Assembly: GCF_009914755.1 (NCBI RefSeq) | Contig: NC_060936.1 | Source: the human T2T-CHM13v2.0 reference genome, Homo sapiens | Direction: 5' to 3' (one strand) | DNA length: 64,000 nucleotides | In this document: positions 481 to 16,395 of the stretch, piece after piece | Layout: each line of letters opens with the position of its first letter | Numbering within the stretch: position 1 is the stretch's first letter | The notes under the pieces: generated by a model | Seen by the model: the letters and a program-made list of their open reading frames with translations, nothing else | Databases searched by the model: none | What the model was told of the DNA's origin: nothing | Made by a program: the position numbers and the translations under genes

Positions 481-1899
481 GTAAGATGTTGACTCTGACC
501 CCTTTCTTGTTTAAGGAGGGAAGGAGTTGGAATGGGTAAAGGCATTCAATATCTGCCACATGCTTGACAGAATGACAGGGATCAGGTAGACTCATTTAAT
601 TGGAAGAGACTTTATTAGAACAAAAGTCATGGCCTTGTGAGGAGCGAGCCAGTCCTCCTACCTCCTGCTCAGTTAAGCCTATTCAGAAAACCACTACTGA
701 GCAACAAGTACACTTGGGACCCTGCTTTAGTGCTGGGGAACACTCAGATGGATAAAATCCAGTCCCTACCATAAAGCAGGCAAATGAGAAACTACAAATC
801 CTGTGGAGCTCTTTTCAAACCTGTTTATGGAGAATATTGGATACTCATGGAGGTGATTTGCTTCACCGTGCTATGAAACCAAGTTTTCCCTGCTTTCAGC
901 AGATTGGCATGTCCTAGATAAGAAGTGGCCTCTGCACAGGATGGTTTTTGAATGGAAGTGGAGGCCAGGAACTCCTCCTCTGTACTTTGAGAATTTTAGA
1001 TGTCAGCAGCTACCTTAGAAAGGGAAAAGAGAAAGTCAAAGTAAGGCTACCATTAGCCCTGAAAAGTACCCCTCTTAGGACTGGGCATAGCTGCGCTCAT
1101 CACTGACCCATCTCTCCTGGAAGAGTCATATGGAAGCAGAGGGAAAGGCTGCAGCATGCAGCCCTCCCGAAGCACACTGCGGGCCTCCACAGGCCATCAT
1201 AGTTCTTCTGCTCCACGCCAGGTGACCTTCCCTCATCAGGCCACTTGATGAAAAGGGTATCTCTCCTGTTCTTCCAAGAGATTTGAATTCCTCACAGAAT
1301 GTGATTCAGAAAATCCATCTTTTCTCCCCTTTTCTCTTTTTAAAGGTACAGATCATTCCCTTCTGGGGCAGGGAAAAGGGGGAGATAAGCAGGAGTCTAT
1401 TAATTTATGGCACAGATAACCACCCCCTCCATTTTCCTATCTTTCAAGGGAAACAGAGTTGCTGAAACCCAGCTCCTGCCATTAATTGACTGAGCAGGGC
1501 TTGCCCCAAGTTTTCTGAGACTGTGAAATGTTTTAGAGAACTTTAGTAGAAAGGGATTCAGGGGTAGGCAGCCCGAAGTTTCACAGCCCCTCCCACCCCC
1601 AAATTCTTGGAATCAGAAAATGTAGTCTTCCAAAGTAGGTCAGTTTGTCAGTGAGCAGCTCCTCTGAAAGGGAAGGGAGCAGAGGCCTTGTCCTGATAGA
1701 GGGCGGATTCATCCAGGGCTTTCGGCTGCTGGGGCCCCAGGGGCACAGGAAGGGGGGGAAATGGGGAGACCGTACCAGCCTTTTTGCCCGGGATCTGAAA
1801 GGTCTCAGGGCCACGGAGCAACACTAGCCTGACACCAGACTCTGCTGGGCCCTCTCACTGCTGGAAAGGAGGAGGCTGTCAGTCCCCACATCTAGAGAG

Positions 1900-2339
1900 C
1901 AACCTTCCTCCTGGAGGAGGAGGGAAAGAGTTCGGTGGGGGAGGGGCTTTCTGCCTCTCTGAGAGCCTTGAAGCTGTCCGTGTCCTGGGCCCCATGACCT
2001 CTGGGGCCTTGGCTTCCCCAGCTGGCAGAGGATTGGGCCTTCCCTAGGGCCCCCCCTTTCTCCCTCCCACCCGCAGGCCCATCCATCTCTCTCTCTCTCT
2101 CTTGCACACACTCTTGCCTCTCTCAGGCATTTGTTGTGCAGTTCCTCTTTGTCTGCTGGGCACGAGGGGCAACAGCATCTGCCTTTCCCTCCCTGTGCAC
2201 ACACCCACCACCCACCCCCTTCACTGTCTTGGAAAAGGGATGCTGTAGCCTAGCATCTCCCCCACTATATACACATATACATTCTCTCCAGCCCCCTCCC
2301 CAAGCACATCCAAGCGTGCTCTCCCCTCTCCTTCTCTCC

Positions 2340-2389
<50 letters not shown>

Positions 2390-2562
2390 ACACACATACA
2401 CCCTGGGCTGAGCTGCTCTTGCTGGCTGCAGCCGTGGGCCTCTGCTCACCGTGCCGCTGCTGCTGCCTGCGAAATGACGGCGGTTCCCCTCACTTCCAGG
2501 AATCCACGCTTCCTGGAAGGTGAGTGGCTGGGCTCACCCCTGCCTGCCACTGAGACGCAGAC
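1900..2562 (+). promoter_or_regulatory. IKZF4: IKZF4 proximal promoter / 5'UTR, with STAT GAS sites
   Basis: Pyrimidine-rich region, CpG cluster ~2430-2670, GAS motifs TTCCAGGAA 2494-2502 and TTCCTGGAA 2510-2518. Exact TSS not determinable. Confidence 0.7.
2341..2386. repeat. Compound microsatellite (TC)10(AC)13
   Basis: Read directly. Confidence 0.97.

Positions 2563-16395
<13,833 letters not shown>

What the first reader, a model, noticed from the sequence alone, without database searches (positions are those of the whole stretch)
2486..2527. Triple-duty element: tandem STAT5 GAS sites that also form an RNA hairpin hiding the alternative 5' splice site
Seen: TTCCAGGAA (2494-2502) and TTCCTGGAA (2510-2518) are two perfect TTC-N3-GAA sites 7 bp apart and reverse complements of each other. 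Pairing extends as CTCAC (2489-2493) with GTGAG (2520-2524), giving a ~14-bp stem with one bulged G that sequesters the alternative donor. The stem begins 12 nt after the upstream ATG codon. A third GAS, TTCTTGGAA, lies at 1604-1612. Established: tandem GAS sites bind STAT5 tetramers, Eos is IL-2/STAT5-linked, and a hairpin ~14 nt downstream of an AUG can boost its recognition. Inference: the same 40 bp may act at the DNA, splicing and translation levels.
Basis: partly seen in the sequence, partly recalled or inferred. Interest (0 to 1): 0.75.

Follow-up and report, generated by a model that had tools for sequence, protein, structure and literature searches.

The report
Paired STAT5 sites in IKZF4 exon 1
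Two perfect STAT-type binding motifs sit 7 bp apart in the first exon of the human Eos gene (IKZF4) and are a plausible docking site for IL-2-activated STAT5, while the RNA hairpin they form looks mostly like a side effect of the motifs being palindromes.

Summary
The window holds 5 TTCNNNGAA motifs against about 23 expected. Three of them lie in 1604-2518, around the IKZF4 exon-1 promoter.

**DNA level.** The pair has a 7-bp gap, which falls in a published secondary peak of STAT5 tetramer spacing. Only 5 loci in the 3.1-Gb genome have this TTCCWGGAA-N7-TTCCWGGAA layout. Mouse literature shows Ikzf4 is IL-2/JAK/STAT5-induced, that STAT5 ChIPs at its promoter, and that it is strongly STAT5-tetramer-dependent. 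No searched paper maps this site. I could not test human occupancy or cross-species conservation.

**RNA level.**
- The 9-10-bp core stem is robust, with pair probabilities of 0.73-1.00.
- The CUCAC/GUGAG extension is a minority conformer in long pre-mRNA (0.03-0.22).
- The alternative donor is the least accessible of 16 annotated donors, but two constitutive donors score almost as low.
- Both other genomic inverted GAS pairs fold just as significantly, one with the same 9+bulge+5 shape.

**Verdict.** This is probably a STAT5 response element. The splicing and translation roles are untested speculation.

The parts
2494..2502 (.). GAS motif 1, TTCCAGGAA; 5' arm of the core stem
2503..2509 (.). 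7-bp spacer TCCACGC between the GAS motifs (centre-to-centre 16 bp); loop of the hairpin
2510..2518 (.). GAS motif 2, TTCCTGGAA, the exact reverse complement of motif 1; 3' arm of the core stem
2489..2493 (+). CTCAC, 5' half of the stem extension. Pairs with GTGAG 2520-2524 in short contexts only.
2517..2525 (+). Alternative 5' splice site AAG|GTGAGT (exon 1970-2519 ends at 2519). It matches MAG|GTRAGT at 9 of 9 positions (consensus recalled).
   Evidence: hub gene table
2549..2551 (+). Bases that pair with donor positions +4 to +6 (2523-2525) in long pre-mRNA context, with probabilities 0.79-0.91
2474..2476 (+). Upstream ATG (context tgcgaaATGa). It opens an 82-codon uORF in the MANE mRNA and a 45-codon uORF in the alternative-donor mRNA, both out of frame with IKZF4.
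2563..2565 (+). Main IKZF4 start codon (585 aa). It is removed from the mRNA when the 2519 donor is used.
   Evidence: hub gene table
2647..2655 (+). MANE donor AAT|GTAAGT, the most accessible of the 16 annotated donors
1604..1612 (.). Third perfect GAS, TTCTTGGAA, about 0.5 kb upstream of the MANE transcription start at 2108
4810..4814 (+). TAATG: the stop of the MANE-mRNA uORF overlaps the ATG of the 532-aa short isoform

Best explanation
The 25-bp unit 2494-2518 is most likely a cytokine-response element acting on DNA. It offers two consensus GAS sites with a 7-bp gap, in the 5'-UTR part of IKZF4 exon 1. That is about +390 from the MANE transcription start and sits on the start of another annotated transcript at 2500. 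The proposed mechanism is that tyrosine-phosphorylated STAT5 dimers, activated by IL-2 or GM-CSF, bind side by side here, possibly joined through their N-domains as a 'staggered' tetramer. This would raise IKZF4 (Eos) transcription, perhaps together with the single GAS at 1604-1612.

Because the two motifs are palindromic and in inverted register, the transcript inevitably carries a stable 9-10-bp hairpin. The hairpin covers the exonic half of the alternative donor at 2519/2520 and lies 12-16 nt downstream of an upstream AUG. I regard any effect on donor choice or on uORF initiation as a possible secondary consequence, not a selected function.

**Shown here:** the motifs, their spacing, their rarity, and the predicted structure.

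**Taken from mouse papers:** STAT5 control of the gene.

**Inferred:** that this particular human site is the one STAT5 uses.
For: **Motifs and rarity**
- Two perfect motifs with a 7-bp gap.
- STAT5 tetramer sites genome-wide peak at gaps of 11-12 bp, with secondary peaks at 6-7 and 16-17 bp (passage of PMC4990345).
- 3 of the window's 5 GAS motifs cluster in 1604-2518, against 0.18 expected for 1500-2700.
- Only 5 TTCCWGGAA-N7-TTCCWGGAA loci exist in 3.1 Gb.
- The region is single-copy, so it is not a repeat family.

**Mouse literature**
- IL-2R blockade lowers Ikzf4; constitutively active STAT5B, but not active STAT3, drives an Ikzf4 promoter reporter; STAT5 ChIPs at the Ikzf4 promoter (passages of bioRxiv 10.1101/2022.11.02.514868).
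- A JAK inhibitor lowers Eos mRNA within 2 h in Tregs (PMC4831811).
- Ikzf4 falls by log2FC -4.07 (FDR 7e-19) and -3.62 (FDR 4e-24) in STAT5 tetramer-deficient cells (PMC10157487 text and supplementary tables).
- TTCCAGGAA, TTCCTGGAA and TTCTTGGAA are all sequences found under human STAT5A/B ChIP-seq peaks at other genes (PMC3907443).

**Hairpin as a by-product**
- The 2 other inverted GAS pairs in the genome fold with z = -3.65 and -5.00. One has the same 9-bp stem, bulge and 5-bp extension.
- The minus strand folds at -23.8 against -21.9 kcal/mol for the plus strand.
Against: - No occupancy data for this human site were available.
- IKZF4 is absent from the text and the one held supplement of the human STAT5A/B ChIP-seq paper.
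- Ikzf4 is absent from the 185-gene list of STAT5 tetramer sites in NK cells. That list also lacks Cish, and Eos may not be expressed in NK cells.
- The mouse reporter that responded to STAT5B contained 2 kb upstream of the TSS. An exon-1 element would not be in it, so the responsive site there may be elsewhere, for example an orthologue of the GAS at 1604.
- Genome-wide, gap-7 GAS pairs are barely commoner than the reversed-pattern control: 542 against 476, and 5 against 3 for the strong type. Most such pairs are therefore chance.
- Tetramers matter most for weak, non-consensus tandem sites (PMC5673064 introduction). Two perfect sites could bind dimers independently.
- The tetramer-dependence of Ikzf4 in monocyte cultures may be indirect, because the cells differentiate differently.
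- Conservation in mouse or other mammals could not be examined with the tools.
Confidence: 0.5

Rival explanations
1. The RNA hairpin is a selected splicing regulator. By sequestering the strong upstream donor (2519/2520), it directs splicing to the downstream donor (2649/2650). That keeps ATG 2563 in the mRNA and yields the 585-aa protein rather than the 532-aa short isoform.
For: - The alternative donor matches the recalled consensus MAG|GTRAGT at 9 of 9 positions, against 8 of 9 for the MANE donor, yet the selected transcript uses the MANE donor.
- The predicted probability that the 9-mer -3 to +6 is unpaired is 3.8e-6. That is the lowest of 16 annotated donors, and only 20 of 3224 plus-strand GT sites score as low. 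The MANE donor is the highest at 0.248.
- The core stem has pair probabilities of 0.73-1.00 in all 5 contexts tested.
- Using the alternative donor removes ATG 2563 and leaves ATG 4812 as the first in-frame start.
- Hairpins that mask 5' splice sites are an established mechanism (MAPT exon 10, SMN2 exon 7; recalled, not checked here).
Against: - In 793-nt and 1131-nt pre-mRNA contexts the CUCAC/GUGAG extension has probabilities of only 0.03-0.22. Positions +1 and +3 are about 70% unpaired, and +4 to +6 pair elsewhere.
- Constitutive donors at 13774 (1.2e-5) and 6227 (3.7e-5) are predicted almost as inaccessible yet are used.
- Both unrelated inverted GAS pairs also show 4-5-bp stem extensions.
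- There is no strand asymmetry and no G-U pairs, so nothing points to RNA rather than DNA.
- 17 loci in the window fold at least as stably.
- When two strong donors compete, the one nearer the acceptor is often preferred without any structure (recalled).
- No covariation data could be obtained.
Confidence: 0.2
2. Full 'triple duty'. The same 40 bp would be a STAT5 site, a splice-site mask, and a downstream hairpin that boosts initiation at uAUG 2474, so lowering translation of Eos.
For: - All the evidence listed for the other two readings.
- The stem begins 12 nt (14-bp form) or 16 nt (10-bp form) after the AUG. This brackets the 14 nt at which a hairpin raised initiation in Kozak's experiments, as summarised in PMC5666671.
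- The uAUG has G at -3 and A at +4, only a moderate context, which is the situation in which such hairpins help.
- The uORF overlaps the main ATG out of frame (82 codons in the MANE mRNA; 45 codons overlapping ATG 4812 in the alternative mRNA), so its use would be repressive.
Against: - Three independent functions in one element need three independent selective constraints, and none is shown.
- Controls indicate the hairpin is generic to inverted GAS pairs.
- No ribosome-profiling or reporter evidence for initiation at 2474 was found. No literature search was run on IKZF4 uORFs, so a published report cannot be excluded.
- A hairpin of about -22 kcal/mol could equally just slow scanning.
Confidence: 0.06
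3. A coincidence with no function at any level. Two GAS-like palindromes arose by chance in a GC-rich 5' UTR, and IKZF4's STAT5 response runs through other sites.
For: - Gap-7 pairs are about as common as the reversed control genome-wide: 542 against 476, and 5 against 3.
- The finding was selected post hoc from a scan of very many windows.
- The STAT5-responsive mouse reporter lacked exon 1.
- No paper found in 6 relevant searches names this site.
Against: - The expected number of gap-7 pairs in a 1.2-kb promoter/exon-1 region is about 2e-4, and about 2e-6 for the strong type.
- The site lies in a gene independently known to be STAT5-controlled.
- There is local clustering of 3 GAS motifs in a window otherwise depleted of them.
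Confidence: 0.22
4. The motifs are used mainly by another factor that reads TTCCNGGAA or GGAA cores. Candidates are STAT3, STAT1 or STAT4, BCL6 as a repressor competing with STAT5, ETS factors, or Ikaros-family proteins including Eos itself.
For: - TTCC[A/T]GGAA fits the general STAT palindrome and resembles the BCL6 site. Each motif carries two GGAA cores, as bound by ETS and Ikaros proteins. All motif preferences here are recalled, not tested.
- Eos co-immunoprecipitates with active STAT5B (preprint passage), so an Eos-STAT5 complex on the Eos gene is conceivable.
Against: - Constitutively active STAT3 did not activate the mouse Ikzf4 promoter reporter.
- No binding data for any of these factors at this site were found.
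- The STAT5 genetic evidence is specific: tetramer-deficient knock-in, IL-2R blockade.
Confidence: 0.12

Closest known systems
Tandem GAS elements bound by STAT5 tetramers (for example in Il2ra and Bcl2, as described by the Leonard laboratory; PMC5673064, PMC4990345)
   Same: - Two TTCNNNGAA motifs in tandem.
- A 7-bp gap (centre-to-centre 16 bp) lies in the published secondary spacing peak, the 'staggered' tetramer class.
- The mouse orthologue's expression is strongly tetramer-dependent.
   Different: - Both motifs are perfect consensus, whereas tetramers are described as rescuing weak non-consensus sites.
- The element lies inside a transcribed 5'-UTR exon and over a splice donor.
- Occupancy is not shown.
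Hairpins that mask 5' splice sites
   Same: A stable local stem overlaps an alternative donor whose use changes the protein isoform. The predicted accessibility of that donor is very low.
   Different: - Here the stem is built from two transcription-factor palindromes.
- Only positions -3 to -1 are firmly paired in long context.
- No mutational or probing evidence exists.
Kozak-type downstream hairpin that enhances recognition of a weak start codon (summarised in PMC5666671)
   Same: A hairpin begins 12-16 nt after an AUG in moderate context.
   Different: Here the AUG is an upstream one opening an out-of-frame overlapping uORF. The effect has never been measured at this site.

Membership tests
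STAT5 tetramer-type tandem GAS element | Two GAS or GAS-like motifs (TTCNNNGAA) in tandem | tested here: met
   TTCCAGGAA at 2494-2502 and TTCCTGGAA at 2510-2518, both perfect
STAT5 tetramer-type tandem GAS element | Gap between motifs in a preferred class (about 11-12 bp; secondary peaks at 6-7 and 16-17 bp) | tested here: met
   The gap is 7 bp, centre-to-centre 16 bp. The spacing classes come from PMC4990345.
STAT5 tetramer-type tandem GAS element | Cytokine-induced STAT5 occupancy at the site, lost in tetramer-deficient STAT5 | not testable with these tools
   Only a mouse promoter ChIP-qPCR at an unspecified amplicon. The NK tetramer-site list lacks Ikzf4.
STAT5 tetramer-type tandem GAS element | Target gene expression depends on STAT5 tetramerisation | tested here: inconclusive
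   Mouse Ikzf4 falls by log2FC -4.07 and -3.62 in tetramer-deficient GM-CSF monocyte cultures. This is gene-level, in another species, and may be indirect.
STAT5 tetramer-type tandem GAS element | Conservation of motifs and spacing in orthologues | not testable with these tools
   No vertebrate genome other than the window's own is held.
5' splice-site-masking hairpin | Donor nucleotides -3 to +6 lie inside a stable stem | tested here: inconclusive
   - The local fold gives P(9-mer unpaired) = 3.8e-6.
- In 793-nt context, -3 to -1 are paired (P unpaired 0.04-0.08).
- +1 and +3 are 0.70 and 0.69 unpaired.
- +4 to +6 pair with 2549-2551, not with the hairpin arm.
5' splice-site-masking hairpin | Stem-breaking and compensatory mutations shift donor use; covariation in orthologues | not testable with these tools
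   Needs minigenes or multi-species alignment.
Downstream hairpin enhancing start-codon recognition | Stable hairpin about 14 nt 3' of a start codon in weak context | tested here: inconclusive
   The spacing is 12 nt (14-bp form) or 16 nt (10-bp form, P 0.82 in long context). The context has G at -3 and A at +4, which is moderate rather than weak.
Known structured RNA family (Rfam 15) | Match to a curated covariance model | tested here: not met
   No match at 2486-2527. Two sub-threshold lncRNA matches lie elsewhere in 1900-2900.

The most novel reading that the evidence does not exclude
The element may couple cytokine signalling to isoform choice. A STAT5 tetramer, possibly with Eos itself since the two proteins interact, would sit exactly on the DNA that encodes the alternative donor and the hairpin. 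IL-2 would then raise IKZF4 transcription and also change Pol II passage and co-transcriptional folding there. That would shift the ratio of 585-aa to 532-aa Eos and the use of the overlapping uORF. The uORF's UAAUG stop-start junction at 4810-4814 could feed terminating ribosomes into the short isoform.
Probability: 0.05. Interest if true: 0.75.

Novelty: new member of a known kind. Interest (0 to 1): 0.38.

Why it matters
Eos (IKZF4) shapes regulatory-T-cell and TH2 programmes. IL-2/STAT5 control of the gene is published, but in the papers I could search the responsive site is not mapped to a motif.

A precise 25-bp candidate gives a direct target for base editing and for reading public STAT5 ChIP-seq tracks.

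The case is also a useful caution. Palindromic transcription-factor sites in transcribed DNA automatically give significant-looking RNA hairpins, so structure alone is not evidence of RNA function.

Tried and rejected
- **Papers not held.** Soldaini 2000, Lin 2012 and the journal version of the Eos/STAT5 paper. The T-cell tetramer-site lists and the ChIP primers were therefore not seen, and the bioRxiv primer tables are images.
- **The exact 25-mer** occurs in no searched paper.
- **Repeat or transposon origin** is rejected: the 141-bp region has one match in the genome, itself.
- **Known RNA family** is rejected.
- **A downstream alternative helix, GGUGAG 2519-2524 with CUCACC 2533-2538.** I considered it, but its pair probabilities are 0.00.
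- **Stem extension as evidence of RNA selection.**
  - The analytic chance of 5 further Watson-Crick pairs in 3 registers is 0.003-0.004, or about 0.02 with G-U allowed.
  - This hairpin has the longest extension of the 15 perfect stems of 9 bp or more in the window.
  - However, both other genomic TTCCAGGAA-N7-TTCCTGGAA loci also show 4-5-bp extensions. I do not count the extension as evidence.
- **Timeouts.** I replaced them with a chunked run and an analytic estimate.
- **NK-cell supplement** is uninformative for a T-cell or monocyte gene.
- **Not possible with these tools:** cross-species conservation and covariation, and MaxEnt-type donor scores.

Full report
**1. What is in the sequence**

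- TTCCAGGAA occupies 2494-2502 and TTCCTGGAA occupies 2510-2518. They are reverse complements separated by TCCACGC.
- CTCAC (2489-2493) faces GTGAG (2520-2524).
- G2519 is the last base of the annotated alternative exon 1970-2519, so the donor reads AAG|GTGAGT.
- An ATG lies at 2474-2476 and a third perfect motif, TTCTTGGAA, at 1604-1612.
- The repeat finder reports the arms as a perfect 10-nt inverted repeat, 2493-2502 / 2510-2519. The single bulge can therefore be drawn at G2519 or G2520.
- All of this lies in the 5'-UTR part of the MANE first exon (2108-2649). It is 45 nt upstream of the main ATG (2563) and on top of the start (2500) of another annotated transcript (hub gene table).

**2. 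Is it more than chance?**

At the DNA level:
- The window contains only 5 TTCNNNGAA motifs, against 22.87 +/- 5.03 in dinucleotide shuffles. All 100 shuffles had at least 5.
- Three of the five lie within 1604-2518. Local composition predicts 0.18 motifs for 1500-2700, giving Poisson P(>=3) = 9e-4.
- In the window's own 3.1-Gb genome, perfect pairs with a 7-bp gap number 542, against 476 for the reversed-pattern control. That is about 0.011 per 64-kb window and 2e-4 per 1.2 kb.
- The strong form TTCCWGGAA-N7-TTCCWGGAA occurs at 5 loci (control 3). Three of them are inverted repeats, including this one.
- So such pairs are not enriched genome-wide and most are accidents. One falling in exon 1 of a STAT5-regulated gene is nevertheless improbable by chance.
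- The region is single-copy.

At the RNA level:
- The 42-nt segment folds at -21.9 kcal/mol, z = -4.09, with 0 of 200 shuffles as stable.
- By raw energy it ranks in the top 0.28% of 42-nt windows (89 of 31,979). Seventeen distinct loci in the window are at least as stable, most of them GC-rich.
- Of the 15 perfect stems of 9 bp or more with 3-12-nt loops in the window, it has the longest extension.

**3. DNA-level reading**

- STAT5 tetramer sites favour gaps of 11-12 bp, with secondary peaks at 6-7 and 16-17 bp. A centre-to-centre distance of 15-16 bp is modelled as a 'staggered' tetramer (PMC4990345, passages; see also PMC11717359 and PMC5673064). The 7-bp gap fits the secondary class.
- All three nonamers found here occur under human STAT5A/B ChIP-seq peaks at other genes (PMC3907443 tables).
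- For the gene itself, the evidence is from mouse:
  - Blocking IL-2 receptors lowers Ikzf4. Constitutively active STAT5B, but not active STAT3 or wild-type STAT5B, activates an Ikzf4 promoter reporter. STAT5 ChIP-qPCR is positive at the 'promoter' (bioRxiv 10.1101/2022.11.02.514868, passages).
  - A JAK inhibitor strongly lowers Eos mRNA in Tregs within 2 h (PMC4831811).
  - In GM-CSF monocyte cultures from STAT5 tetramer-deficient knock-in mice, Ikzf4 falls by log2FC -4.07 (FDR 7e-19) and -3.62 (FDR 4e-24) (PMC10157487 text and supplementary tables S2-S4).

Against this reading:
- The reporter held '2 kb upstream of the TSS', which would exclude an exon-1 element.
- That preprint contains no occurrence of 'motif' or 'consensus', and its primer tables are images.
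- IKZF4 is not mentioned in the human STAT5 ChIP-seq paper or its one held supplement.
- Ikzf4 is not among the 185 genes with tetramer-specific sites in NK cells. That list also lacks Cish.
- Six literature searches found no paper that maps a STAT5 site in IKZF4 to sequence. The exact 25-mer occurs in none.
- Lin 2012 and Soldaini 2000 are not held, so their site lists could contain it.

**4. RNA-level reading**

- The core GAS-GAS stem is robust. Pair probabilities are 0.73-1.00 in all five contexts tested: three pre-mRNA lengths, the MANE mRNA and the alternative-donor mRNA.
  - It scores 0.22-0.69 in a 451-nt pre-mRNA context and 0.15-0.67 in the MANE mRNA.
  - It scores only 0.03-0.22 in 793-nt and 1131-nt pre-mRNA.
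  - In those long contexts the register C2493-G2519 dominates at 0.82.
- In the 793-nt context, the donor positions behave as follows:
  - -3 to -1 are paired (P unpaired 0.04-0.08).
  - +1 and +3 are mostly free (0.70 and 0.69).
  - +4 to +6 pair with 2549-2551 (0.79-0.91).
- With local folding (window 120 nt, span 80 nt), the probability that the whole 9-mer is unpaired is 3.8e-6. That is the lowest of 16 annotated donors in the window, and only 20 of 3224 plus-strand GT sites score as low. The MANE donor is the highest at 0.248.
However, the constitutive donors at 13774 (1.2e-5) and 6227 (3.7e-5) are nearly as 'hidden', so the measure predicts use poorly.

**5. Controls that change the picture**

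I fetched and folded the four other genomic TTCCWGGAA-N7-TTCCWGGAA loci.
- The two that are inverted repeats give z = -3.65 and -5.00, with 0 of 200 shuffles each. One has the very same architecture: a 9-bp stem, a one-base bulge and 5 more pairs. The other has a 4-bp extension.
- The two direct-repeat loci give z = -1.23 and -2.17.
- The minus strand of the IKZF4 element folds at -23.8 kcal/mol, slightly better than the transcribed strand.
- The main stem has no G-U pairs that would mark the RNA strand.
- A significant hairpin, extension included, is therefore what any inverted GAS pair tends to give. It is not evidence of selection on RNA.
- No Rfam family matches.

**6. Coding consequences**

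- In the MANE mRNA, the uATG at 2474 (context tgcgaaATGa) opens an 82-codon uORF. It runs out of frame across the main ATG at 2563 (context gcagacATGc).
- That uORF ends at TAA 4810-4812, which shares its last A with ATG 4812-4814, the start of the 532-aa short isoform (TAATG).
- With the 2519 donor, ATG 2563 is lost. The uORF becomes 45 codons and overlaps ATG 4812 out of frame.
- The transcript starting at 2500 has neither the uATG nor the 5' arm of the stem.
- The stem starts 12 nt (14-bp form) or 16 nt (10-bp form) after the AUG. This brackets the 14 nt at which a hairpin raised initiation in Kozak's work, as summarised in PMC5666671.
- The geometry is permissive and nothing more.

**7. 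Verdict**

- The best-supported mechanism is a STAT5 (IL-2 / GM-CSF) response element made of two consensus GAS sites with tetramer-compatible spacing (confidence about 0.5). It is a new, unmapped member of a well-known class in a gene already known to be STAT5-controlled.
- The hairpin is real as a thermodynamic prediction, but it is largely an automatic by-product. A role in donor choice is possible (about 0.2). The full three-level model is unlikely (about 0.06). Pure coincidence remains substantial (about 0.22).
- Decisive evidence was out of reach here: ChIP tracks, mammalian alignment, and separation-of-function mutants.

Noticed in passing
window 4810-4814: The 82-codon uORF that starts at ATG 2474 in the MANE mRNA stops at TAA 4810-4812. 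That stop overlaps ATG 4812-4814, the start of the 532-aa short Eos isoform, in a TAATG stop-start junction. This arrangement allows termination-reinitiation in some viral mRNAs (recalled).
   Followed up: partly
window 1-64000: TTCNNNGAA is strongly depleted across the whole window: 5 found against 22.9 +/- 5.0 in shuffles and 16.7 from base composition. The cause was not examined. The high repeat content (45%) may contribute.
   Followed up: no
window 2319-2401: A compound (TC)n / (CA)n microsatellite lies inside the IKZF4 5' UTR, about 90 bp upstream of the GAS pair: TC x14 at 2333-2360 and CA x21.5 at 2360-2401. It is likely length-polymorphic and could affect promoter or UTR behaviour.
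   Followed up: no
window 2500: One annotated transcript starts at 2500, inside GAS motif 1. It lacks the uATG and the 5' arm of the hairpin, so it would escape both proposed RNA-level effects (hub gene table).
   Followed up: partly
L002 (G000:C13:102944929-102944970): An unrelated locus carries TTCCAGGAA-N7-TTCCTGGAA with the same 9-bp stem, one-base bulge and 5-bp extension (-13.1 kcal/mol, z = -5.0). It is a useful natural control, and its genomic context was not examined.
   Followed up: partly
window 2226-2234 and 1443-1668: Six one-mismatch GAS-like sequences lie in 1400-2800, at 1443, 1513, 1532, 1543, 1660 and 2226. Four of them cluster in 1513-1551, just upstream of the perfect GAS at 1604. 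Their spacing to it was not analysed.
   Followed up: no
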